The notes below the pieces were generated by a model. It was not told the origin of the DNA. It did not search any database and was given only the letters and a program-made list of their open reading frames with translations. This document shows, one piece after another, positions 12,625 through 23,466 of a stretch of 64,000 nucleotides of DNA (position 1 is its first letter; each line of letters begins with the position of its first letter). The translations under genes and the position numbers were made by a program. The stretch comes from Candidatus Atabeyarchaeum deiterrae (GTDB lineage Archaea > Asgardarchaeota > Atabeyarchaeia > Atabeyarchaeales > Atabeyarchaeaceae). The DNA lies in the NCBI GenBank assembly GCA_037310415.1, contig CP147780.1, positions 1,792,001 to 1,856,000 on the forward strand, in the 5' to 3' direction.

Positions 12625-13211
12625 AGTGCTCCAGAGAAACAGGGTTTTCAAACTCACGCCACACTGCATTTTGCATTCATCAAACTGGGAGAAAAGACGG
12701 AGCACGCACCTACTTGAACTCCGGCCAGCGTTGCAGGTGGTGGCATAAGCCGACTTATGTGTATCATGGGCGTTTCAATATGAACAATGTTGGAAACGGA
12801 TGCGATGATTAGGCGTTAATCTTTCTGGCATATCCCACTAAGCTGATTTTTCTCCACCCTTCAATCGAGTTAAATAGTCTTCACTCTATAATGCTATCCG
12901 TCGAAGAGAAGATTACATCTAATGAGCTATAGCTTCAGCCAAGTCATCTGCCAATCATTATCCCTAGTCGTTCGAGTATGATCTCGTATGGTGACCGCAT
13001 GAGGTCCGAGGAAAGAATGCCTCCACCCTGAGGGCGAGTACATGGTGGGGAAAACCCTCAGGATCTATGTCCCAGGGCTCTGTGGAGATCACCAGGATTC
13101 GCTGCCCGGCGGCATAGTTAGTGTTAGCGTGACCGATTTGATTTCGTGATTATTCAAGCCAGCGCTTTGACGGCATGAGTGTATTCTCGAATCAAGAGGT
13201 CGATAGTAATA

Positions 13212-13874
13212 ATGCAGCAAACCGGTGGACATAGAAACCATAGGACCATACTAGGAGAGCAAGCTTGTCGAGTTGTTAGAGCATCCTTGGAGGAACAGTG
13301 TTGGAGGATGCACACGTTTGATTGGGTTCCTATCTTTTCATGTTGTCAGACCTGCTCCAATGAGAAGAAACTATCGGAGGAAGCACGCAAGTCCTATGGA
13401 TGGACTAGGCCTGATTTTCTAGCGAAGTCCCTGTCCGGGAATCTCTGCCTTTTGGAAGTCAAGGGCAAGAGCAGACGCAAGTTTGTCGTTGATGACTTTA
13501 GGTATGAATCTTATGTATACTGGGAGCGATTTCTTGGCATTCCAGCATTCGTAGTTTTCTATGTAAGCTCGGATAACAGACAGGACGATAGCAGATTATA
13601 TCTGCATAAGGTCCTTGATGAGGACGTTAGAATTGGTGATATCGGCGATAACTTGGAGCTACTTGTGGACACAGAGGGCAATGTGAGCCAGACAAATGAT
13701 AAAGTCATATCGTTGAAACGAATAGATTCAGGATGGTTCCTAAGTGAAGAGCTTGAACAACAAATTGATGCCTGGGATGTATCTGAAAGTCTCTCAAAAT
13801 GGATCGAAAGAAAGGACTCCGATTTAAACACCGAGAAATTGTCAGAATCGGCCGTACGCCACCTGCTGCAATGA
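13212..13874 (+). CDS. PD-(D/E)XK nuclease-fold protein
   Basis: RPDFL...LLEVKGK catalytic pattern. ATG at 13212 follows GAGGT. Confidence 0.65.
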   Translation: MQQTGGHRNHRTILGEQACRVVRASLEEQCWRMHTFDWVPIFSCCQTCSNEKKLSEEARKSYGWTRPDFLAKSLSGNLCLLEVKGKSRRKFVVDDFRYESYVYWERFLGIPAFVVFYVSSDNRQDDSRLYLHKVLDEDVRIGDIGDNLELLVDTEGNVSQTNDKVISLKRIDSGWFLSEELEQQIDAWDVSESLSKWIERKDSDLNTEKLSESAVRHLLQ

Positions 13875-14370
13875 GCGTTGAAGCCAGTAAGTCGGATGCT
13901 GGATTTCCGCTACGTTACTCATCGTCATGGTGTTCATGCCCCATTGGCCCAGTGAGATAATGGAAATGTCGTGAAACTAATGAGGACAAATGCGGATGCG
14001 GACGGAGCAGTTAGTCGGAACTTGGTTTTGCAGGAGCCAACCAGGAAATGCATTAGTCTGTCTTGCGTTCTCTTCAGTCTCGCTGCTGTGTGCGCCGAAA
14101 GTGACGGAGCAAAACATAGACCAGGTATGTACGCTGTGATTGCGCTGCTAATATACACTCTGATTTGAACTCTCAATTGTCGAGCCTGCATTTCTCTCCT
14201 CCGATCTGGGCTCTCGATTACATGGCTCATGCGTCGTTTGGACTCTTAATTCTCAAACACATGTCCGGGTGACCAAGGAGTGGAGCGCCACTCGAATATC
14301 TCTGAATTGCCAGAGGCAACTTACCAAAGATTTTTAATACCCCAATCCTACCTTCAGTCAGGGTGAGGGA

Positions 14371-17010
14371 ATGCAGGACAAACCCAAGCTATTGGTTAAA
14401 TTCTCAGGATTGCCAGATGCGACAAGTGGCTTCTTCTTGCCTGGCAATAACTGGCTTATTACTGGTCATCAGAATGGCTTAGTCCTCAGATGGGATGTCG
14501 AGAAAGGCACGAGTGATCTCTTGTACAAGTGCGCTTCGGAAATTGAGACGATTTCGGGATCAGGCGGGAAGAGTATCGTAATTGGCACTCATGCAGGCGA
14601 ACTTGTCGTTCTGGATCTGGAAAACCCGAAAAACGCCGAGGTGATCCAAAAGGCTACATATGACAAGCATTCGCGAATTTGGAGAACGGTTTGGCCCACG
14701 AAAGGTGGCATAGTATTCACCTCAACATATGGTGTAATGAATGCCGTTTCGAGAACAATGGAGGGACGTTGGGAAAACGTCCCCCTCTCTGGTCATTCTG
14801 ACAGTATATTTGGTTTGGGCAACTTCGACGGCACTCTTTTGGCTTCTGGAGACTACAGGGGCAATATCCTAATCTGGAAATCCGAAGCGGGCAGGTACGC
14901 TGTGATTCAAACTCTCAAGGTCAACCAGGTCATACAAGGTATATCATGGCACAAGGATCGATCATTTGCGGTGATCGGACAAGCCGGACGCATCTATTTG
15001 TACGAAGAAACTGAGAGTAACACGCAACAATGGCAACTTATCGTCGAAGTGAGCAATGCGAGTAGTTACGGAAGATGCGTACACATAACAGACGACGGAA
15101 AGACTGTTTTTGCAGGAACGGACAATGAACTAATTCAGTTTGACATAGATTCTCAACAAGTTGGATCGATCGATATTGCGGGCGCAAGAACGCTATTCTC
15201 AAAAGGCGATACAATCTACGTTCTGACAGGAAACGCATTCGAGTCGTTTCAGAAAAAGAAAATAGAAGTTAAGGTAGGCTTCATAAGATACAGGTATGCG
15301 AAAATCAGCTTGATCGGACAAACGGGTGTAGGAAAAAGCACCCTCTGCAATTTTATTATAACTGGATCGCCCGGAGACTTGAAGTCGACTTTCGGCAGGA
15401 GGGTATGGAACTGGAGCATCCTGGGCGATGAGTCTCTTGAGAGGCGAATCATTTTCTACGATCACGGTGGTCAGGAGACAGTCCTCGGCACATTCTTGCC
15501 TTTCATAACGGATTCTGATCTCATCCTCATTGTCTTTCAACAGAACGACAAAGGGACGTTTAGAACTGCTCTTAGAACTCTAGACCAGATCAAGACCAGT
15601 CTAGCTCCAAAGACAAAGATATTCTTTGTGCAAACTCACATCGATCATCGAATGAATGAGATTGATGAGTCCTACGTTAAGAGCCTCGTTGACTCGGGGC
15701 AGATCAACGGTCACTTCAAAGTGTGTCCTTCGGACGGTTCAGGAGTGGAGGAACTGAAGTCCCGCTTGGCCAAAGAGATATCTTGGGTCGACGCACGGAT
15801 TATGATCCAATCCCAAAGCGTGGATGGCGTCATAAAGACAATCTCATCTCTGCAAGACAGGAACGTCAACACGATCAGATTTGAATTCTTCAGGAAGGCG
15901 TATGGGCAACTAGGTTTGAACATATCAGCCAAACATCTCGAATTCCTGCTCCGAGACTTAAGCGACCAAGGCATGATCGACTATTACCCTAAAGTCAGCG
16001 ATTTGATCATCATTAGCGACGAGAAGTACAATGAACTGCGAACACAGATTCCCATCTTCGTAGATCAGCACAACGGAATTGTCTCATTCGACGACCTACT
16101 TGCCGCCTTTGGACATCACGAGTACTTGCCGATATTGGACTTGGTATATCAGAGCTACGGTGTATCCATCAAGGATCAGAACCTAAGAGTTTTCCCAGAG
16201 AAACTGAAGAGCGAAATCATAACTATTCCTGAGAAGTACAGCCACCTTTTGAAAGGGAGCCAGCCTAGGGTCGTGTCTACACCGCCACGCAAGATCGAGG
16301 TAGCTCGCTTGATTGCAGCTCTTTCTGAACTCAACCTGCGATGCATTGACGCATCACAGAGTGATGGTCTGTTTTCATGGGAAGAGAATGCATGTGTCTA
16401 CTATAGGTTCCAGAGATTTGGCGATGCAATGCAGGGAGAAGTTGTCAGATGGACGTACTTTATTGCCGGCGCCAAGAAGCAGACATGCGAGCGTCTTGAA
16501 GGCGAGTTCCAAAGCATTGTCGAGAAGCTTTATGGTCCCTTTGTCGCAACCTCTCAGAACAATCTTAAAAAAAAACCGTTGAAGAAGGAAATTAGGTTCG
16601 ACGTTGCACTTTCTTTCGCCGGAGAGCAGAGAGATTACGTGAGGCAAGTAGACGAGATCCTTGAGGGCAAGGGCGTCAAAACATTTTTCGCTGAGTTTTA
16701 CACTCACCAGCTCTGGGGAACGAACCTTGCAGAGTACCTCAATGATGTTTTCTACTCACAGTCGAATTATTGTATGATGTTCGTCTCCAAAGAGTATATA
16801 GAGAAAGCTTGGCCAACGCATGAACGCAGAAGTGCGATTGCCAGACAGATCAAACAGTTTGGCAACTACATATTGCCCGTCATATTTGACGATTCTGAGG
16901 TTCCAGGTTTTCAGCTTTCATCAATAGGATATTTAGACGCGAGAAAAATGTCTCCATCAGATGTGGCTAATCAATTTGTCAAAAAACTGGAAGCAAGTCA
17001 GGGCAGTTAG
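14371..17010 (+). CDS. WD40-like beta-propeller - Roc GTPase - COR-like - TIR multidomain protein
   Basis: N-terminal WD-type blades (GHSDSIFG...LASGDYRGNILIWK). P-loop GQTGVGKST, G3 DHGGQE and G4-like THID. C-terminal FDVALSFAGEQR...WPTHE TIR domain. Confidence 0.85.
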   Translation: MQDKPKLLVKFSGLPDATSGFFLPGNNWLITGHQNGLVLRWDVEKGTSDLLYKCASEIETISGSGGKSIVIGTHAGELVVLDLENPKNAEVIQKATYDKHSRIWRTVWPTKGGIVFTSTYGVMNAVSRTMEGRWENVPLSGHSDSIFGLGNFDGTLLASGDYRGNILIWKSEAGRYAVIQTLKVNQVIQGISWHKDRSFAVIGQAGRIYLYEETESNTQQWQLIVEVSNASSYGRCVHITDDGKTVFAGTDNELIQFDIDSQQVGSIDIAGARTLFSKGDTIYVLTGNAFESFQKKKIEVKVGFIRYRYAKISLIGQTGVGKSTLCNFIITGSPGDLKSTFGRRVWNWSILGDESLERRIIFYDHGGQETVLGTFLPFITDSDLILIVFQQNDKGTFRTALRTLDQIKTSLAPKTKIFFVQTHIDHRMNEIDESYVKSLVDSGQINGHFKVCPSDGSGVEELKSRLAKEISWVDARIMIQSQSVDGVIKTISSLQDRNVNTIRFEFFRKAYGQLGLNISAKHLEFLLRDLSDQGMIDYYPKVSDLIIISDEKYNELRTQIPIFVDQHNGIVSFDDLLAAFGHHEYLPILDLVYQSYGVSIKDQNLRVFPEKLKSEIITIPEKYSHLLKGSQPRVVSTPPRKIEVARLIAALSELNLRCIDASQSDGLFSWEENACVYYRFQRFGDAMQGEVVRWTYFIAGAKKQTCERLEGEFQSIVEKLYGPFVATSQNNLKKKPLKKEIRFDVALSFAGEQRDYVRQVDEILEGKGVKTFFAEFYTHQLWGTNLAEYLNDVFYSQSNYCMMFVSKEYIEKAWPTHERRSAIARQIKQFGNYILPVIFDDSEVPGFQLSSIGYLDARKMSPSDVANQFVKKLEASQGS

Positions 17011-17091
17011 CGGGTGAACCCATGGCCATCATTCATATGTATTAGAAATCGAGGATCCAGTTCGATCTCCGCAAAGCGGGAGGAGAGAGTT

Positions 17092-17634
17092 ATGTCGGTC
17101 GTTTCCGGTAGCTTCCTTGATGATTTCTGTCTTGCTTGTCAGAGGATCGGTTCAGATTACTTCGACGTACCGATGAAAGGTGGGAAGCCGAAGTATCTTG
17201 AGAGAGTCTACTGCTATGAACTTTACCATCGGCTCCGCAGCTGCTCTCGACTTGCCTTGTCCCCGGTTACTCTGTTTGGAGAACCTGATAAATCCGCATA
17301 CCGCAGACTGAGCGAAAAGGTACGAGCGAAGAAACCAGATCTTATATTTCATGTCCCGGGCGAAGCCAGGAACTTGATTGTCATTGAGGTGAAACCAGCA
17401 AAAATGAGGCGAAATGGTCTTTGGAAAGACATCAATACCCTAAGTACTTTCTTGAGTGATGTTGACACGCAATACCTTTATGGTATCATGCTTGTTTACG
17501 GGGCACTCGAAACAGGGGGCTTACCTTGGTTCGTTAAGATTGATCTCCGCAATCTCGCAGGCGATTACGCGAATCGCATCCTTCTCCTGTGGCATGCACA
17601 TCCGGGAGAGAAGCCTTCGCTGGAGACATGGTAG
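17092..17634 (+). CDS. PD-(D/E)XK nuclease (ERVYCYELYH-type)
   Basis: ERVYCYELYH...GEPDK...KPDLIFH...IEVK. ATG at 17092 follows GGAGGAG. Confidence 0.7.
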   Translation: MSVVSGSFLDDFCLACQRIGSDYFDVPMKGGKPKYLERVYCYELYHRLRSCSRLALSPVTLFGEPDKSAYRRLSEKVRAKKPDLIFHVPGEARNLIVIEVKPAKMRRNGLWKDINTLSTFLSDVDTQYLYGIMLVYGALETGGLPWFVKIDLRNLAGDYANRILLLWHAHPGEKPSLETW

Positions 17635-17877
17635 GCAATTCGCATAGGCACACTTATGTGCGTCATTTTCCATGTTCGCGCGTGCGACCCAGCGGTCCGG
17701 TTAAGAGGATAGCCTTTTGGCAATCCATCGTAGAAGACCATGATTAGTAGATGGGACAATTCGGGGACGAACCTTGATTGCCCGAGCAATCATGACTGCC
17801 AGCAATTCTTAGTAAACATATATAGGCTAATCGTCGTACCGATCCAATCATATCCAGTCTAAAGCACCTTCGACGTC

Positions 17878-18657
17878 TCAAAAAGTAATCGCATGGATCC
17901 TGAACAGTTCCGCTAGCGTCTCTCCTGGAATCAGAGAGCAATAGGTTTTCTTTCTTTCGTTTATCCTGACAAAATGGTGATGAGCGGCTTGTATGGAAGT
18001 CTGCACCGCTCTTGACAAGGCACGTCCATAGATCCAGACGAACCCGTCAATGTTGTATTCCAGCGCCTTTGATGTCTGAGACCTAATCTTGTCCTCGGAA
18101 ATATCGTCATTCAGAGTCTTGATCTGAAACCCAATTATCGCGCCGCTTATCTTCTTCGATACGTCAATCCCAGAATATTCCTTTATTCCGTGCAGCGATA
18201 ATTGGAATGATTTGGCAATCCTTTGGAGCAGGACATCAAAAGCGCTAAGCAGTTTATCATGGGGACTATAGATTCTTTCAAATCTTGAAACTATCTGCTC
18301 TCTTTCCTTGGCGAATTTGGACTTATCGTATCCTATTTCGATATATCCGGAGACAAAGTTGTTGGCAATTTCAAAACCGGATGGTTCATGATAGTTTACA
18401 TCGATCTTTGAAAGGCGTGGGTACAGAAGGTCATTAACGGTCTGTCTATCAACGGCGTTCACTCTGAAGAACGGTGTTTTCAGCGCTCTGACTGCGGCAA
18501 GGAATGACGTCTTAGCGACTTTTCCTTTGCCCACCTCTACTAATTGGCAATATGAATGGGCAATCATCTCCGCGAAGCAGTCTACATCTTGGAATCCAGC
18601 CTCATGAATGATGTCCATCACGATCGACAGCACACGCCTTTCGAATTCCACTCTCAA
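17878..18657 (-). CDS. Restriction-endonuclease-fold protein (D...QxK, Mrr-like catalytic motif)
   Basis: SGIDV...GFQIKT motif in the C-terminal half. Last gene of the HTH operon. Confidence 0.6.
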   Translation of the reverse strand: MRVEFERRVLSIVMDIIHEAGFQDVDCFAEMIAHSYCQLVEVGKGKVAKTSFLAAVRALKTPFFRVNAVDRQTVNDLLYPRLSKIDVNYHEPSGFEIANNFVSGYIEIGYDKSKFAKEREQIVSRFERIYSPHDKLLSAFDVLLQRIAKSFQLSLHGIKEYSGIDVSKKISGAIIGFQIKTLNDDISEDKIRSQTSKALEYNIDGFVWIYGRALSRAVQTSIQAAHHHFVRINERKKTYCSLIPGETLAELFRIHAITF

Positions 18658-18718
18658 TCTGTTCGCACCCTAATTATCGTTCCTTCAATCGCTTCACAAC
18701 TGTAGCCGTCACTAAATC

Positions 18719-19111
18719 TTACTCGATCCCGAAGTCCTTTGAGAGTCTATGACTGATTCTAAGGAGTGCGTCGACCTTTGTCTTCCCGTAGATCGTCCCT
18801 TTCGCGTTAACTTCCTTGACTTCAATCAAACTCATTTCTTTGAGTTTCGGGATTTCCCGAGAGACATCGGGTCCAAGCAATTTCAAATCATTCGCGATAT
18901 CTCCAACAACTCTTGTGCCATCAATTGCAAGGTAGATTCTCGCCCTATTGACTGCCTTCTTCTTTCCTGGAACATTACCAAAGAAATCCATTATCTCAGC
19001 CAAGATCTCCTTGCCATGGGCGCGCGTTATTAGCTCAATGTTCCCATCGATGGATTCTTGGTGCCACCGTATTCTTTTGATCTCTTCGAATAGATCCTCG
19101 GTCTCTGGCAT
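18719..19111 (-). CDS. Small winged-HTH protein (array member 5)
   Basis: IYLAIDGTRVVGDIANDL...VSREIPKLKEMSLIE. Preceded by RBS GGAGTG. Confidence 0.75.
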   Translation of the reverse strand: MPETEDLFEEIKRIRWHQESIDGNIELITRAHGKEILAEIMDFFGNVPGKKKAVNRARIYLAIDGTRVVGDIANDLKLLGPDVSREIPKLKEMSLIEVKEVNAKGTIYGKTKVDALLRISHRLSKDFGIE

Positions 19112-19125
19112 GTTCTGGTCACTCC

Positions 19126-19434
19126 TTAAATCGGGAATAGCTTCCTGTAGAACTTTCCTCCTGGTCTCTCGATCTCATATATGATGCCAACCTCCTCCCA
19201 TTCGGCAAGTATGGGGCTTAGGGTCGGTTCTTTCACGCCCACGATCTCAGCGATCTGTGAGAGAGAATGATTGCCATCACATGCATTGTAGCCGTTGATA
19301 TACCTCTCTGGATCTTGCTTTTTTCTCGCGGTTACTATGTTGCGCACGGATTCAGGTTTGAAAACTAGTCGCCCTAGCAGAGAGATTATGATCTCACTTT
19401 GCTTTACTAACTTCATTACGGGTACTTCACTCAA
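19126..19434 (-). CDS. Small winged-HTH protein (array member 4)
   Basis: YNACDGNHSLSQIAEIVGV...LSPILAEWEEVGII. Preceded by RBS GGAGG. Confidence 0.75.
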   Translation of the reverse strand: MSEVPVMKLVKQSEIIISLLGRLVFKPESVRNIVTARKKQDPERYINGYNACDGNHSLSQIAEIVGVKEPTLSPILAEWEEVGIIYEIERPGGKFYRKLFPI

Positions 19435-19664
19435 TTTCCTGCCTCCAATGCCTCGCTATTTCATGTCGATTCGTCATTTCTTGAAGTTGCCGGTAAAGGA
19501 TACGAATTTTTGGAGAGGCACCGTGGATTCTCCGTTGCCTCCCGGTTTGTCAGCCAGAACTGTTGACAACTCGCCAAGCACTCAGTCACCCTCAATCATA
19601 AGCAAAGAGGAGAACTGTGTGACGACAAAAGCCCGATTCATGCTGACTCGTCCTGAGAAGACCT

Positions 19665-19964
19665 CTAGACGTCTAGGTTATCCAAGTTGACGTACTTCTT
19701 GCTTCGCGCCTTCCCCGAACTCAAGATAAGACCTCTCCTTTCCCAGAGAGGCAATACCGATTCAAGTTGTCGATTATCTGTGTAACCAGCAAATTGTGCT
19801 ATCTCATCTATTAAACGTTTACCATCTAGAGCTTCGTAAGCTTTTCGTTGCTGGTCAGTTTTCAGCAACTCGGCCTTGAGACCATCAACCATCGCTCTTG
19901 TTTGCATGAGGATGAGCTTGACTATGATCGATGCCTGCCTTGCAGGCTCATCGTGTTCGCTCAC
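19665..19964 (-). CDS. Small winged-HTH protein (array member 3)
   Basis: AYEALDGKRLIDEIAQFAG...LPLWERRGLI. Preceded by RBS GGAGGTG. Confidence 0.75.
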   Translation of the reverse strand: MSEHDEPARQASIIVKLILMQTRAMVDGLKAELLKTDQQRKAYEALDGKRLIDEIAQFAGYTDNRQLESVLPLWERRGLILSSGKARSKKYVNLDNLDV

Positions 19965-20104
19965 GGTAAACCCACCACCTCCTTTTCATGAGAAATGTCT
20001 TGGACACTGCCAGATTTCTCAACAGCGCCAGTCCGGGTCCAGTCGTCTCGCCGCTCTCGGTCCCGTATGGTGAGGATATATACACGCGATCCTCTGCTTC
20101 CTTC

Positions 20105-20356
20105 TTAGCCCGTTTCCGGGCTCCCTTTTCCACTCCTTTGCTTTCTAATCATGGACAGCGTAACGTTAACGGTATTCGTTGTAGTCCCGATTGTTGTCGC
20201 TATCTGGCTAGGTCCGAGACCTGCATCAAATAGCACCTCGATCTGTTTTTTCTGGCTTTTCATATCCTTGATTATGTTGAGAGCGGATAGCCGTATCAGA
20301 GTATCTAACCTCAATGCTATTTCAGAAAGTTGAGGATCACCCTTTATGGAACTCAC
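20105..20356 (-). CDS. Small HTH protein (array member 2)
   Basis: RLDTLIRL N-terminal helix and GLGPSQIATTIGTTTNTVNVTLS HTH. Preceded by RBS GGAGGTGA. Confidence 0.75.
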   Translation of the reverse strand: MSSIKGDPQLSEIALRLDTLIRLSALNIIKDMKSQKKQIEVLFDAGLGPSQIATTIGTTTNTVNVTLSMIRKQRSGKGSPETG

Positions 20357-20431
20357 GTTTCTTTTTCACCTCCAACCGGGGCTTCTCTTGTCTTAGTTTG
20401 TTCTTCGAGTAGTTACGCCTCTTTTGATGTC

Positions 20432-20767
20432 CTATTTCAAGGGAGAAATCTCGATTCCGAAATCCTCGAGTGAGAAGACTCGCTTAGCTCGTTCTCCTCC
20501 TTTCACGCTTGAGAGTTCTGCAAGGCCTGCTCTTGACCACTTCTTCCACCACTTAGTCACGGTCACATAGCTCGCCCCGCAGTTATTGGCGACCTCTTGG
20601 CTGCTACGTCCATCGCTGAAATGGTAGGCAAGTTTTTCTTCATCACTTTCAAGCATGTCCTCGAGGAGTTTCTTAACTGTCGGGATGCTTGTGACCTTCA
20701 ACCACTTCAGTATCTCTTCAAGGATGCGTATTTTCTTCTCATTGAGGTCCTTTTCGTCGTTGGACAT
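20432..20767 (-). CDS. Small winged-HTH protein (array member 1)
   Basis: ILEEILKWLK helix and AYHFSDGRSSQEVANNCGAS..TVTKWWKKWSRAGL. Confidence 0.75.
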   Translation of the reverse strand: MSNDEKDLNEKKIRILEEILKWLKVTSIPTVKKLLEDMLESDEEKLAYHFSDGRSSQEVANNCGASYVTVTKWWKKWSRAGLAELSSVKGGERAKRVFSLEDFGIEISPLK

Positions 20768-22136
20768 TCTTGTCGTAATCCCCCATGCATGAACCCCTGA
20801 TCAGATTATTCTGCCAGATCGAATATAACAATTTCTTTTGTTCTGTATCTGATGGCAGAGAGGATTGCGAATTCCCTCACGGGGAACCACAGGTTCCATA
20901 AAGTCCTCGGTGAAGCGTTCTAGCGGTCTGTCTGCCACGGTGTCGCCCTCATCTGCAATCCTGTAAACTGTGGCTTGAAACCCTCTAAACCCCCCGTGGA
21001 AGTTTCGTGATGGAAGTGACTCCGCCTGGGATATTGACCGAGAAAAGTGAATTATCTCTCTCAAATTGGGTTTTGGTTGCTCTCTTGGCCTTGCTAATCT
21101 TAGTATCATGAAAGGAGGACACAACTGCCAACCCTCCATGTGCCCCATCAACGAACACAATCAGTAGAAAAGAATTGGATGATTCTTTCCTTCCCGTAAC
21201 CTGGAACCAACCTGGTGAATGTTTTAGGGGATGCGAAAACTGGCGCTAGTCAGTGTAACCTTGGAGCCAGCAATTCATAATCTAAATGATCCGGACCGTT
21301 GGGGCGCGTTGACAGTCGATTCCTGTCTAGACCACCAGCAGATACACACAGGTCGAGTCATGTACGGTCCTGCAGCTAGAAAAGCAACCTAGAAAAGTGG
21401 ACTTGTGAATACGCAGCGATGCTCTTTCGGACTCCCAGCTGGTGAGAAGGTATGACTTTCAAACCAATATCAAGTCGATACCTCTTAGCGGCCTTGAACT
21501 CTGAGATATAATGAATCAACGTGATTGACTGCTACTTGTTCATTGCACTCCATCGACAAACCTAGAACGAGCCTCCACCCACCCCGACGGTTCTTTCCAG
21601 CGGACTACCCATCTCTATTTTTGGATGGACTATCGTATCGACGTGCGTATCTTTCCATTATTCGAATCGGTAGCAACAGGTAGTACTATAGCGTCTGGCC
21701 TGGTTCACATAAGCCGGGTTGTGTGCAAACGCTTGTCTGAAAAGGCGGTCAAGACATTAGTGTGCATTTAGTCAGTCTTTGTGATTCCCTGGCTCAGCGA
21801 AGATTTGTCAAATGCGCGTCGTCGAAAGGTATCCTCGTGGCCAGTAGACCTCAGTACGTGAAAGAACTTGTTTGTTTCTATTCTTCTCAGCTTGACCCCT
21901 TTTCTGATTGGTCGTCACCTCACTGTCTTCGGATTGGATGAGCCCAATCGGTTCCGGGATATCAGGCTCCGAGAAAAGGCGGGGAGCGAGTCAACAAGAA
22001 TGTATCAGGAGCTTAAAGACGTCCCAACGAACTAGAGTTGAAAGTGAGCTTTCAGGAGGAGTGCGGGATGAAATTGGCTGTCGAGGAGGATTTCTCTTGA
22101 AAGCGAATGCTTCAGAATGCCGGGGCTTAACTGAAG

Positions 22137-22751
22137 CTAGTGGAATATCTTGAGCAACGCGTAGCCTTGGAATGCTGACCATAAGACCAAACCATACACG
22201 GCCAGTTTCTGCATCCATGCTGTGCCTATAAGAAAGATATGCAGCAGACATATGGCGGCCACTATTATGCCAACGAGCGCGAACCATTGGTTATAATTCT
22301 TGTTAAGAAGAATGGCAACCGAATATATCACGATGGCTGAGGCGTAGAGCAGGAAGAACAGTATCGTTGACATGCCGTGTTCTAAGGGGAATATGTCACC
22401 AGCTAAGATGGCAAGCGCAGATAGGAACGGTGCCGCCGCGAGACCAAGAACAGTGCCCACGTAACCCAGATATTTCACCGAATTCGGTTTCGTGAAGACG
22501 GTGTGAATAGACAGCCAGAATGGAACGGAACAGACCGCAGCAGACGTGCAGGCTGCAGAGAACAAAACATAGTTCACCGTATTAGGCTGACCGGCCACCT
22601 GTGTTAATCCTAGTTCACTGAAGTAGTTCGCAAGAAATGAGTAACCGCCAGGGTAAATCAGCATGCTCGTAAATGTGAGGATGACGAAAAGGACGCCGCC
22701 AAGTATCCCGCTAACTGCACCATACCATTTCCATGACCCAGTCACTCGCAA
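22137..22751 (-). CDS. DUF998-like multi-pass membrane protein
   Basis: YPGGYSFLANYFSELG motif and about 6 TM helices. Confidence 0.7.
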   Translation of the reverse strand: MRVTGSWKWYGAVSGILGGVLFVILTFTSMLIYPGGYSFLANYFSELGLTQVAGQPNTVNYVLFSAACTSAAVCSVPFWLSIHTVFTKPNSVKYLGYVGTVLGLAAAPFLSALAILAGDIFPLEHGMSTILFFLLYASAIVIYSVAILLNKNYNQWFALVGIIVAAICLLHIFLIGTAWMQKLAVYGLVLWSAFQGYALLKIFH

Positions 22752-22909
22752 TCACCTTCTGCGTCTTATTGCCTTGTCTTTTATTGTCTGATTCTTCACC
22801 CTAATATACTCAGCTCACTCCTAGTTGATGAGAAACTTGGTTCAACGTCGGGTTGAGATCGGAACCAGCAGGATCTGGAATCCAGTGGGGGGCTCCAGAT
22901 ACGATTCCG

Positions 22910-23263
22910 TCAGCTACCCGTTGTGATCGGCTTGTATGATTCGACGAAGCTTTTGGCAAATTCCATTGCGTTCCCCTCAGTGCCTCTGTGAACCTTGTCT
23001 ACCCTTGTCCTTAGATGATGGTAGAACTCATGCAGGACTACAAACGGGTTCATCAACACGTCGCTGTTCAGAACAGATATCGTTCTGTCTCTGGCCGTAT
23101 AGCACCCCAGCACATTCTTCCGGTGCCCCTTGGGCAGACCAACTTTTATTCTGGGCACGCTGACATGGTAGTAGTCTGCGAGCAGCTCTAAGGCGTTCTC
23201 AGGTCTGCCGTCCAATATAAGCTGGACGACAGAGGTCTTGAACTTGATTGGGTCCACAGGCAT
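22910..23263 (-). CDS. Small zincin-like (HExxH) protein
   Basis: VVLHEFYHH followed by E...A.EFA. Confidence 0.65.
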   Translation of the reverse strand: MPVDPIKFKTSVVQLILDGRPENALELLADYYHVSVPRIKVGLPKGHRKNVLGCYTARDRTISVLNSDVLMNPFVVLHEFYHHLRTRVDKVHRGTEGNAMEFAKSFVESYKPITTGS

Positions 23264-23466
23264 TCCTTTTGCCTTCGACGAATTGGATCAGCTTCTTGGG
23301 TTGCTACCACATTCTAAATGACTCTGGTCTCTAGCTCACTCAGCTGCACATATATATTTATTAACTTCCCAATCTAACGTCTCTAAGAATGCATTTGAAG
23401 GTTGAGACTAGGGGCAACACGCAGCTTTGGCAAAACGGAAGAGGATACTAGTGGTGAGATGAGCAA

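What the first reader, a model, noticed from the sequence alone, without database searches (positions are those of the whole stretch)
17878..20767. Operon of five paralogous small HTH proteins capped by an Mrr-like nuclease
Seen: five co-oriented genes of 83-130 aa, each with a purine-rich RBS, followed by a D...QxK nuclease. All share an N-terminal amphipathic helix (ILEEILKWLK, RLDTLIRL, IIVKLILM, IIISLLGRL and a weaker one in member 5). Four share Y-x3-DG-x(4-5)-[EQD][IV]A, and three continue to W-x3-G[LI]. They are too diverged to be recent duplicates. Inference: the N-terminal helices could assemble a hetero-oligomeric DNA reader that gives the nuclease combinatorial specificity or controls it, for example as a modular restriction or abortive-infection system or a multi-antitoxin switch. 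I do not recognise this layout as a named system.
Basis: partly seen in the sequence, partly recalled or inferred. Interest (0 to 1): 0.88.

Follow-up and report, generated by a model that had tools for sequence, protein, structure and literature searches.

The report
Poly-wHTH array with nuclease effector
Five related small DNA-binding proteins and a restriction-type nuclease form a conserved, horizontally spread archaeal gene cassette whose last gene is replaced elsewhere by TIR, caspase-like or other killing domains, which is the signature of an immune system that has only been predicted on computers and never tested.

Summary
Six intact, co-oriented minus-strand genes lie at 17878-20767: five small helix-plus-(w)HTH proteins and a 259-aa PD-(D/E)xK nuclease with invariant D165, Q178 and K180.

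It is not a chance cluster. Across 56 nuclease loci with upstream sequence, the g5-type gene sits directly before the nuclease in 51. It is preceded by arrays of about 4-10 paralogous small genes, in 27 different combinations among 31 loci. These loci come from Bathyarchaeia, Asgard genomes and sediment metagenomes.

The nuclease's first ~90 residues form a helical module. The same module occurs fused to TIR, CHAT and at least six other C-terminal domains, and each such gene with enough upstream sequence again follows a g5-type gene and an array. HEPN proteins also join some arrays.

The cassette lies in an ~8.4 kb insertion that sister genomes lack. Elsewhere it rides 6-7 kb integrative elements.

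An October 2026 preprint predicts "poly-wHTH systems", meaning wHTH runs with HEPN or TIR effectors. This is most likely a new variant of that class, with a REase effector, an adaptor domain and a fixed g5 subunit.

The proposed hetero-oligomer remains untested. The scan noted this same stretch twice, only on this genome.

The parts
20432..20767 (-). g1, family A: N-terminal helix plus wHTH (111 aa); first gene of the array
   Evidence: ORF. It is 65% identical to the Freyarchaeum orthologue. The family profile matches MntR/MarR wHTH at E 4e-4. Family A is present in 25 of 31 full loci.
20105..20356 (-). g2, family B: N-terminal helix plus short HTH (83 aa)
   Evidence: ORF. Its orthologues are 33-47% identical. 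The profile matches CooA and sigma region 4 HTH at E 2e-4. Elsewhere the B domain is fused or adjacent to HEPN_Swt1.
19665..19964 (-). g3, family C: N-terminal helix plus wHTH (99 aa); the rarest family
   Evidence: ORF. It is 41% identical to L001 gene 4. hhalign gives 97-98% probability to families A, D, F5 and F9. Family C is present in 8 of 31 full loci.
19126..19434 (-). g4, family D: N-terminal helix plus wHTH (102 aa); usually the penultimate gene
   Evidence: ORF. Its orthologues are 57-69% identical. The model (pLDDT 84.6) has helix 4-24 followed by a winged helix, and Foldseek matches SmtB/MarR at probability 1.0. It is the penultimate gene in 30 of 44 loci. The N-helix is its most conserved segment.
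18719..19111 (-). g5, family E: ArsR-like wHTH with an N-terminal helical region (130 aa); the invariant gene directly before the effector
   Evidence: ORF. It is 62-78% identical to orthologues in Bathyarchaeia and Freyarchaeia. The profile matches ArsR/CzrA at E 5e-6. It lies immediately upstream of the nuclease in 51 of 56 loci and upstream of the TIR, CHAT, X1, X2 and X3 effectors.
17878..18657 (-). Effector (259 aa): N-terminal ~90-aa helical adaptor module (signature T-x-F-F-x-x-N) plus a C-terminal PD-(D/E)xK nuclease (E160, D165, Q178, K180)
   Evidence: Alignment A2. Model at pLDDT 89. Fold matches. The N-module is shared with TIR, CHAT and other effectors. No Pfam or PADLOC family matched.
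20768..20850 (-). Possible archaeal promoter: a purine-rich tract followed by TTATAT about 50 nt before the g1 ATG
   Evidence: Read directly from the sequence. This is inference only; no transcript data were available.

Best explanation
This is a horizontally mobile archaeal conflict (immune or abortive-infection type) cassette of the 'poly-wHTH' kind.

**Proposed mechanism.**
- A set of paralogous small proteins, each a conserved N-terminal helix followed by a (w)HTH, forms the nucleic-acid-binding sensor part.
- The g5-type protein is the fixed last subunit. It couples the array to an effector through the effector's ~90-residue N-terminal helical module.
- In this window the effector is a PD-(D/E)xK DNase that cuts DNA once the array has engaged foreign or abnormal DNA.
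- Diversity arises from which paralogues are present, not from rapid change within each paralogue.

**Shown here.**
- Gene content, folds and catalytic motif.
- Strict linkage between the g5-type gene and the effector.
- Effector swapping on a common N-terminal module.
- Patchy, island-borne and element-borne distribution.

**Inferred.**
- DNA binding by the array.
- Physical assembly through the N-terminal helices.
- Contact between the g5-type protein and the adaptor module.
- Nuclease activity and the immune role.
For: **1. Conserved linkage.**
- The g5-type gene directly precedes the nuclease in 51 of 56 loci.
- Arrays have a median of 6 genes (up to 10) in 31 loci with at least 3 kb of upstream sequence, in 27 different architectures.
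- Orthologues keep their positions across phyla.

**2. Paralogy.** The array families are homologous to one another over their full length, N-terminal helix included.

**3. Effector swapping.**
- An exhaustive profile search found about 45 cluster representatives that share only nuclease positions ~3-90.
- These carry other C-terminal domains: TIR (P0143), CHAT (P0145, P0155, P0156), two further D...xK-type families and others.
- In all five such loci with enough upstream DNA, a g5-type gene and an array precede the effector.

**4. HEPN proteins join arrays.** HEPN_Swt1 lies next to or is fused with the B-type HTH. A Hypoth_Ymh gene sits inside about 11 arrays.

**5. Defence-island neighbours.** These include type I R-M, Hachiman, OLD-TOPRIM, GmrSD and, in this window, WD40-Roc-TIR.

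**6. Patchy distribution and insertion.**
- The nuclease was found in 4 of about 185,000 species genomes.
- The g5 family was found in 5 of 400 genomes of the phylum.
- Both same-family genomes lack the cassette.
- The two flanking genes are 2.0-2.45 kb apart in those genomes and 10.8 kb apart here.

**7. Active site.** The nuclease fold and catalytic residues are intact.

**8. N-helix constraint.** The N-terminal helix is as conserved as the wHTH or more so. In family D it scores 0.93 against about 0.75.

**9. Prior prediction.** A 2026 preprint independently predicts runs of wHTH genes with HEPN and TIR effectors as immune systems.
Against: - There is no experimental or expression evidence for any member.
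- No evidence of a complex was obtained.
- The array proteins within each orthogroup are well conserved between phyla (62-78% for g5, 57-69% for g4). They are not fast-evolving, which is unusual for an arms-race sensor and differs from the preprint's description.
- Several copies lie inside 6-7 kb integrase-bounded elements whose only other cargo is this cassette. A role in the element's own biology is therefore not excluded.
- No methyltransferase or other self-protection gene is present. If the nuclease is active, how it is held in check is unknown.
Confidence: 0.55

Rival explanations
1. The cassette is a toxin-antitoxin-like addiction module with extra regulators. The g5-type wHTH protein is an antitoxin and autorepressor of the adjacent effector toxin. 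The other small HTH proteins are transcription factors that tune the operon rather than parts of one complex.
For: - The g5-effector adjacency is strict, with short gaps or overlaps (61 nt here, a 4-nt overlap in L077).
- g5 is ArsR-like, a classic autorepressor fold.
- The cassette is carried on small integrative elements, where addiction modules are common.
- Effector swapping also occurs in TA families.
Against: - A TA pair does not need 4-10 further paralogous genes kept in semi-conserved order across phyla.
- The N-terminal helix shared by all array families suggests a common protein-level role.
- The adaptor module on every effector points to recruitment rather than simple neutralisation.
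Confidence: 0.2
2. The cassette is the core maintenance or regulatory module of a family of small integrative elements. The wHTH proteins act as repressors, excision cofactors or partition adaptors, and the nuclease acts in recombination or replication. The copy in this window would be a remnant that has lost its integrase.
For: - A tyrosine integrase flanks the array in about 9 loci.
- Direct repeats of 27-33 nt bound units of 6.0, 6.4 and 7.3 kb that hold little else.
- ParA-like genes paired with a long family-A wHTH protein lie beside two arrays.
- Many small wHTH proteins are typical of archaeal plasmids and viruses (PMC4158269).
Against: - Most loci have no integrase, and neither does this window.
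- Replacement of the nuclease by TIR, CHAT or HEPN domains fits killing effectors, not recombination or replication enzymes.
- No relative was found in the viral, phage or plasmid collections.
Confidence: 0.15
3. The genes are ordinary, independent transcription factors that happen to lie next to an unrelated nuclease gene.
For: In the single-sequence scan, each small protein on its own gives only sub-threshold generic HTH hits in Pfam.
Against: The same linkage recurs in more than 50 loci from different phyla, with position-specific orthologues.
Confidence: 0.03

Closest known systems
Poly-wHTH systems (PRA-wHTH based), predicted in bioRxiv 10.64898/2026.10.19.760177 (22 Oct 2026)
   Same: - Runs of separately encoded wHTH genes, some with six or more copies.
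- N-terminal extensions on the wHTH proteins.
- An exchangeable downstream effector, including HEPN and TIR.
- Defence-island contexts and no experimental data.
   Different: - The effector here is a PD-(D/E)xK nuclease. CHAT and at least two further D...xK families also occur, and none of these is listed in the preprint.
- All effectors share a ~90-aa N-terminal helical module, and the g5-type subunit always sits next to the effector. The preprint describes neither feature.
- The wHTH orthogroups here are conserved between phyla rather than rapidly diverging.
- Homology of these wHTH families to the preprint's PRA-wHTH domain could not be tested, because no sequences were held.
ParA-wHTH systems (PwHTH1), same preprint
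   Same: [quoted passage not shown] This is the architecture of g1 and g3-g5.
   Different: There is no ParA in this cassette or in most loci. A ParA-like gene lies beside the array in only 2 of about 70 loci.
Effector-associated-domain (EAD) and Death-like adaptor conflict systems (Kaur et al. 2020, PMC7159879; Kaur et al. 2021, PMC8195603)
   Same: A small helical N-terminal module is shared by alternative effectors (REase, TIR, caspase-like CHAT), which implies recruitment of the effector to a sensor.
   Different: - No NTPase core is present.
- The module was not detected on the partner proteins by profile comparison.
- No Pfam EAD or Death-like family matched.
- What I state about EADs beyond the titles and abstracts listed comes from my own knowledge.
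Mrr / Type IV and Type ISP restriction nucleases
   Same: The nuclease core has the same fold and the D...QxK motif. The best structural matches are the Mrr-like domain of LlaBIII, AF1548, MspJI and AspBHI. The functional logic is also similar: winged-helix DNA readers combined with a nuclease.
   Different: - Here the readers are separate multi-paralogue genes, not a fused domain.
- There is no sequence-level match to Pfam Mrr_cat.
- The N-terminal domain is a helical bundle, not a winged helix.

Membership tests
Poly-wHTH systems (bioRxiv 10.64898/2026.10.19.760177) | Several genomically linked wHTH genes or domains, some systems with six or more | tested here: met
   There are five in the window. 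The median is 6 and the maximum 10 in the 31 loci with at least 3 kb upstream.
Poly-wHTH systems (bioRxiv 10.64898/2026.10.19.760177) | A downstream effector gene that is exchanged between systems (HEPN, cNMP cyclase, HKD, TIR) | tested here: met
   TIR, CHAT, HEPN_Swt1 or Ymh, and several nuclease-like domains occupy the effector position. REase and CHAT are not on the preprint's list.
Poly-wHTH systems (bioRxiv 10.64898/2026.10.19.760177) | The wHTH is homologous to the PRA-wHTH domain defined in the preprint | not testable with these tools
   No sequences or supplementary files of the preprint are held.
Poly-wHTH systems (bioRxiv 10.64898/2026.10.19.760177) | Rapid sequence diversification of the wHTH proteins | tested here: not met
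   Orthogroups are conserved between phyla. g5 is 62-78% identical to its orthologues, family D has a mean column identity of 64%, and g1 is 65% identical to the Freyarchaeum copy. Variation lies in which paralogues are present.
ParA-wHTH systems (same preprint) | A ParA NTPase gene coupled to the wHTH genes | tested here: not met
   No ParA is in the window cassette. A deviant Walker A motif was found near only 2 arrays.
ParA-wHTH systems (same preprint) | [quoted passage not shown] | tested here: met
   The g4 model has helix 4-24 before the winged helix. The profiles align through the N-terminal helix.
PD-(D/E)xK restriction-endonuclease fold, Mrr-like branch | An alpha-beta-beta-beta-alpha-beta core with the acidic residue and (E/Q)xK on neighbouring strands | tested here: met
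   Model. Z 9.0, 8.9 and 8.8 to the LlaBIII nuclease domain, AF1548 and the R.BspD6I small subunit. D165, Q178 and K180 are invariant.
PD-(D/E)xK restriction-endonuclease fold, Mrr-like branch | Sequence match to Pfam Mrr_cat (PF04471) or another curated nuclease family | tested here: not met
   No Pfam family matched at E up to 1 for the window protein, and none matched consistently among 34 homologues. The PDB sequence profile search found no nuclease.
PD-(D/E)xK restriction-endonuclease fold, Mrr-like branch | Fused N-terminal winged-helix DNA-binding domain, as in Mrr | tested here: not met
   Residues 1-106 are modelled as a helical bundle with only generic helical matches.
EAD / Death-like adaptor conflict systems | A small helical module at the N-terminus of alternative effectors | tested here: met
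   The same ~90-aa module, with signature T-x-F-F-x-x-N, sits on REase, TIR, CHAT and at least six other C-terminal domains.
EAD / Death-like adaptor conflict systems | The same module on the partner (sensor or NTPase) protein, allowing homotypic pairing | tested here: inconclusive
   hhalign of the nuclease profile against all nine array families gave probabilities of 0.4% or less. Short helical segments are hard to detect this way.
EAD / Death-like adaptor conflict systems | An NTPase core (STAND or similar) | tested here: not met
   No NTPase lies in the cassette in the window or in the recurrent architecture.
Type II toxin-antitoxin pair | A small DNA-binding protein encoded directly beside the toxin | tested here: met
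   The g5-type gene is adjacent to the effector in 51 of 56 loci.
Type II toxin-antitoxin pair | Direct neutralisation of the toxin by the antitoxin | not testable with these tools
   This needs co-expression or binding experiments.
Known defence systems in PADLOC-DB v2 | A match to any system model | tested here: not met
   The small proteins gave only weak hits to wHTH tails of CasR/CARF (best E 1.7e-4), and the nuclease gave none.

The most novel reading that the evidence does not exclude
This is an NTPase-free archaeal immune system, present in Asgard archaea among others. Up to ten paralogous helix-wHTH proteins assemble through their N-terminal helices into a hetero-oligomeric DNA reader. 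A fixed subunit (the g5 type) docks a dedicated helical adaptor module that can carry a DNase, TIR, caspase-like protease or other killing domain. This would be adaptor-based effector recruitment, analogous in logic to Death-domain signalling but built on a different module.
Probability: 0.3. Interest if true: 0.8.

Novelty: new variant of a known kind. Interest (0 to 1): 0.64.

Why it matters
**Why the system would be unusual.**
- If it is an immune system, its sensor is a variable set of small DNA-binding paralogues. It would not rely on an NTPase, a guide nucleic acid or DNA modification.
- It would show modular effector recruitment through a previously undescribed adaptor domain in Asgard archaea and Bathyarchaeia.

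**What is ready to test.**
- The g5-adaptor pair and the orthogroup catalogue give concrete reagents: which genes are core (g5 type plus effector), which are optional, and which residues to mutate (D165, K180; the T-x-F-F-x-x-N signature).
- The poly-wHTH class has so far only been predicted computationally.

**Annotation gap.** The nuclease family and the adaptor module have no Pfam or PADLOC model, so current defence-annotation pipelines miss them.

Tried and rejected
- **Complex prediction.** Complex prediction for the g5-type protein with the nuclease, both given as alignments, returned no verdict (score 0.00 in two runs). This is neither for nor against binding.
- **RNA evidence.** No RNA holder was listed for the stretch.
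- **Fusions of the g5 type.** A search for longer proteins containing a g5-type domain found none. This is weak evidence only.
- **Pfam and PADLOC.** Pfam was searched on the window proteins and on 34 nuclease homologues. PADLOC was searched. No family was found for the nuclease, and the small proteins gave only sub-threshold HTH hits.
- **PDB sequence profiles.** The nuclease and the X1 and X2 effector families gave no meaningful match.
- **ESM Atlas.** The search with nuclease residues 1-110 gave only generic helical neighbours. The VIA-align matches of residues 1-90 to archaeal filamentous-virus capsid proteins (Z 6.3-7.5) fall within the range the tool says is common for helical bundles.
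- **Virus, phage and plasmid collections.** No relatives were found in IMG/VR contigs (g5 profile), GenBank phages or PLSDB plasmids (nuclease).
- **Own genome.** There are no further paralogues of any of the six genes.
- **Mobile-element signs around the window copy.** There is no integrase remnant and no flanking direct repeat.
- **Literature.** The 2014 archaeal 'dark matter' survey (PMC4158269) and the Atabeyarchaeia/Freyarchaeia MGE paper (PMC11529989) do not describe this cassette in their main texts.
- **Link to the neighbouring WD40-Roc-TIR gene.** I considered and rejected a functional link. That gene is convergent and does not recur in the other loci.
Full report
**What is in the window**

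Six intact ORFs lie head to tail on the minus strand:

| Gene | Coordinates | Length |
|---|---|---|
| g1 | 20432-20767 | 111 aa |
| g2 | 20105-20356 | 83 aa |
| g3 | 19665-19964 | 99 aa |
| g4 | 19126-19434 | 102 aa |
| g5 | 18719-19111 | 130 aa |
| nuclease | 17878-18657 | 259 aa |

- Each gene has a GGAGG-like tract 8-14 nt before its start. The gaps between genes are 75, 140, 230, 14 and 61 nt.
- A purine-rich tract followed by TTATAT lies about 50 nt before the g1 ATG. It could be an archaeal promoter (inference only).
- On single sequences, Pfam gives only sub-threshold HTH hits for the small proteins and nothing for the nuclease. PADLOC gives nothing usable.
- The genome (2.76 Mb, one contig) has no other copy of any of the six genes.

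**The nuclease**

- It has 99 homologues of about 250 aa in the large protein collection. All are unnamed and have no Pfam domain.
- In an alignment of 34 homologues, E160, D165, Q178 and K180 are invariant.
- The AlphaFold model (pLDDT 89.4) has two parts: a helical N-terminal region, and a C-terminal alpha/beta domain in which D165 and Q178-x-K180 sit on adjacent strands.
- The C-terminal domain matches restriction-endonuclease folds:
  - Z 9.0 to the nuclease domain of the Type ISP enzyme LlaBIII;
  - Z 8.9 to AF1548;
  - Z 8.8 to the small subunit of R.BspD6I;
  - Foldseek E 7.6e-4 to EcoT38I.
- 'Mrr-like' is therefore right for fold and motif. Sequence membership in Pfam Mrr_cat was tested and not met.

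**The small proteins**

- The loci gathered below yielded orthologues of each window gene and four further families of small array proteins (F5, F7, F9, F12).
- Profile-profile comparison shows that A (g1), C (g3), D (g4), E (g5), F5, F7 and F9 are homologous to one another at 93-99% probability. The aligned regions include the N-terminal helix.
- B (g2) pairs with F12 (98.5%) and more weakly with F5 and F9 (92%). None of the families resembles the nuclease.
- Matches to solved structures:
  - the E profile matches ArsR/CzrA repressors at E 5e-6;
  - the A profile matches MntR/MarR at 4e-4;
  - the B profile matches CooA and sigma region 4 HTHs at 2e-4.
- The g4 model (pLDDT 84.6) has a long helix (residues 4-24, modelled with lower confidence) followed by a canonical winged helix. 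Foldseek places it with SmtB, MarR and TFE.
- The proteins are neutral to basic.
- Within families, the N-terminal helix is conserved as strongly as the wHTH. In family D it is the most conserved segment, at 0.93 against about 0.75.

**The cassette is conserved**

- The first contexts examined all showed the nuclease preceded by 4-8 small co-oriented genes. These came from a JGI metagenome, Ca. Freyarchaeum, Ca. Bathyarchaeum tardum and others.
- Sixty more metagenome loci and four species genomes were then collected, and all ORFs were classified with family HMMs.
- Of 56 loci with at least 400 nt upstream of the nuclease, 51 have an E-type gene immediately upstream. The five exceptions are partial matches of the nuclease domain alone inside other proteins.
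- Of 31 loci with at least 3 kb upstream, 29 have four or more array genes (median 6, maximum 10), in 27 different architectures.
- Gene order is semi-fixed:
  - D is penultimate in 30 of 44 loci;
  - F5 followed by F7 often opens the array;
  - A is usually in the middle.
- The window's order, A-B-C-D-E, is unique in this set.
- Orthologues are well conserved between phyla. Compared with the Freyarchaeum copies, g5 is 76% identical, g1 65% and the nuclease 54%.

**Effector swapping**

- An exhaustive profile search of 1.84 billion cluster representatives found only 16 strong full-length relatives of the nuclease.
- It also found about 45 representatives that match only positions ~3-90.
- Their C-terminal parts are:
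  - TIR (P0143);
  - CHAT caspase-like protease (P0145, P0155, P0156);
  - two larger families with D...xK-type motifs (X1, X2);
  - several smaller groups.
- An alignment of the N-terminal parts shows a common signature that includes T-x-F-F-x-x-N.
- Wherever enough upstream DNA was available, these genes are again preceded by an E-type gene and an array:

| Locus | Genes before the effector | Effector |
|---|---|---|
| L077 | E | TIR |
| L082 | B F9 A E | CHAT |
| L079 | A A D F9 A E | X1 |
| L081 | F5 F9 A E | X2 |
| L083 | B F9 E | X3 |

- Another Asgard genome has A B E followed by a further effector type.
- HEPN proteins also take part:
  - HEPN_Swt1 is adjacent to a B gene in Freyarchaeum;
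  - it carries a B-type HTH in L079;
  - it caps a separate F9-C-E-like array in L083;
  - a Hypoth_Ymh protein, which scores against a profile I built from these three HEPN_Swt1 proteins, sits inside about 11 arrays.
- An invariant partner gene, a shared N-terminal module and interchangeable killing domains together form the usual comparative-genomic signature of a conflict system.

**Context and mobility**

- Neighbours include type I R-M, Hachiman, OLD-TOPRIM, GmrSD and, in this window, a WD40-Roc-TIR protein.
- The family is rare and patchy:
  - the nuclease was found in 4 of the species genomes scanned;
  - the E family was found in 5 of 400 genomes of the window's phylum;
  - neither was found in the two genomes of the same family.
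- The phylum is the one that contains Ca. Freyarchaeum, because handle G037 is that genome by size and coordinates. The window therefore comes from an Asgard archaeon.
- In the sister genomes, the hydrogenase large-subunit gene and the flavoprotein gene that flank the island are 2.0-2.45 kb apart. Here they are 10.8 kb apart. About 8.4 kb, including this cassette and the WD40-Roc-TIR gene, is therefore an insertion.
- In about nine other loci a tyrosine integrase flanks the array. Direct repeats of 27-33 nt bound units of 6.0, 6.4 and 7.3 kb that contain little besides the cassette.
- The window copy has no integrase remnant or flanking repeats.
- No relatives were found in the virus, phage or plasmid collections.

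**Comparison with what is known**

- PADLOC has no model for the cassette.
- The paper on complete Atabeyarchaeia and Freyarchaeia genomes used DefenseFinder and PADLOC. Its main text does not mention this cassette.
- A bioRxiv preprint of 22 October 2026 (10.64898/2026.10.19.760177) predicts two related classes:
  - 'poly-wHTH systems', which are runs of wHTH genes (some with six or more) carrying N-terminal extensions, followed by HEPN (most often), cNMP cyclase, HKD or TIR effectors;
  - mainly archaeal 'ParA-wHTH systems', whose wHTH carries an elongated N-terminal helix.
- The preprint proposes that the arrays coat invading DNA and that the effectors act as a backup.
- The present cassette fits the poly-wHTH layout and shares the HEPN and TIR effectors.
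- It differs in five ways:
  - REase and CHAT effectors;
  - the common adaptor module on all effectors;
  - the invariant E-type subunit;
  - conserved rather than fast-evolving orthogroups;
  - no ParA, apart from a ParA-like gene beside two arrays.
- Homology to the preprint's wHTH domains could not be tested, because no sequences were held.

**Mechanism and verdict**

- The best-supported reading is a mobile conflict cassette. In it, the paralogous helix-wHTH proteins form the nucleic-acid-binding part, the E-type protein links them to the effector's N-terminal module, and the effector here is a DNase.
- The linkage, the folds, the motif, the effector swapping and the mobility are shown.
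- The assembly, the E-adaptor contact, the DNA target and the immune role are inferred.
- The main rivals are a TA-like addiction pair with accessory regulators, and a maintenance module of the small integrative elements.
- I rate the finding real and interesting. It is a new variant of a class that has only just been predicted, and nothing in that class has been tested experimentally.

Noticed in passing
L006:1239-8330; L012:3165-9622; L038:103-7398: These are small integrative elements of 6.0-7.3 kb bounded by 27-33 nt direct repeats. In L006 the integrase ORF begins with about 125 residues of a DUF763 protein, and a near full-length DUF763 gene lies at the other end. One repeat copy sits inside each of the two. 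This suggests integration into the DUF763 gene, with both genes kept open.
   Followed up: partly
window 12625-23466: About 8.4 kb between the hydrogenase large-subunit gene and the flavoprotein gene is absent from both same-family genomes, where the two genes are 2.0-2.45 kb apart. Besides the cassette, the insertion holds the 879-aa WD40-Roc-TIR gene (14371-17010) and two ORFs with no Pfam match (13179-13874, 17014-17634).
   Followed up: partly
L028:3067-4677; L060:3578-5163: A ParA-like gene (deviant Walker A motif KGGVGKT) is divergently paired with a longer (~220 aa) family-A wHTH protein right beside the arrays. It could be a partition module of the carrying element, or a link to the preprint's ParA-wHTH systems.
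   Followed up: no
L013:4911-5714 (also L014, L026): A 267-aa HTH plus Schlafen/AlbA_2 protein is inserted inside the wHTH array in three loci.
   Followed up: no
L031:407-1408 (also L030, L035, L038): A 333-aa Cys-rich protein with no Pfam family recurs next to the integrase on the elements that carry the cassette. It may be the elements' replication protein.
   Followed up: no
L085:7598-7876; L086:7503-7772; L087:3032-3310: Three other Asgard genomes carry ~93-aa ORFs that match only the effector's N-terminal module (E about 1e-9). Two of them have an in-frame stop nearby, and none has an array next to it. They could be stand-alone modules or decayed effectors.
   Followed up: partly
L043:5544-8501 (protein P0129, 971 aa): The nuclease domain also occurs at the C-terminus of a ~970-aa protein with TPR-like repeats on a 1.9 Mb metagenome contig. 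It has no upstream array.
   Followed up: no
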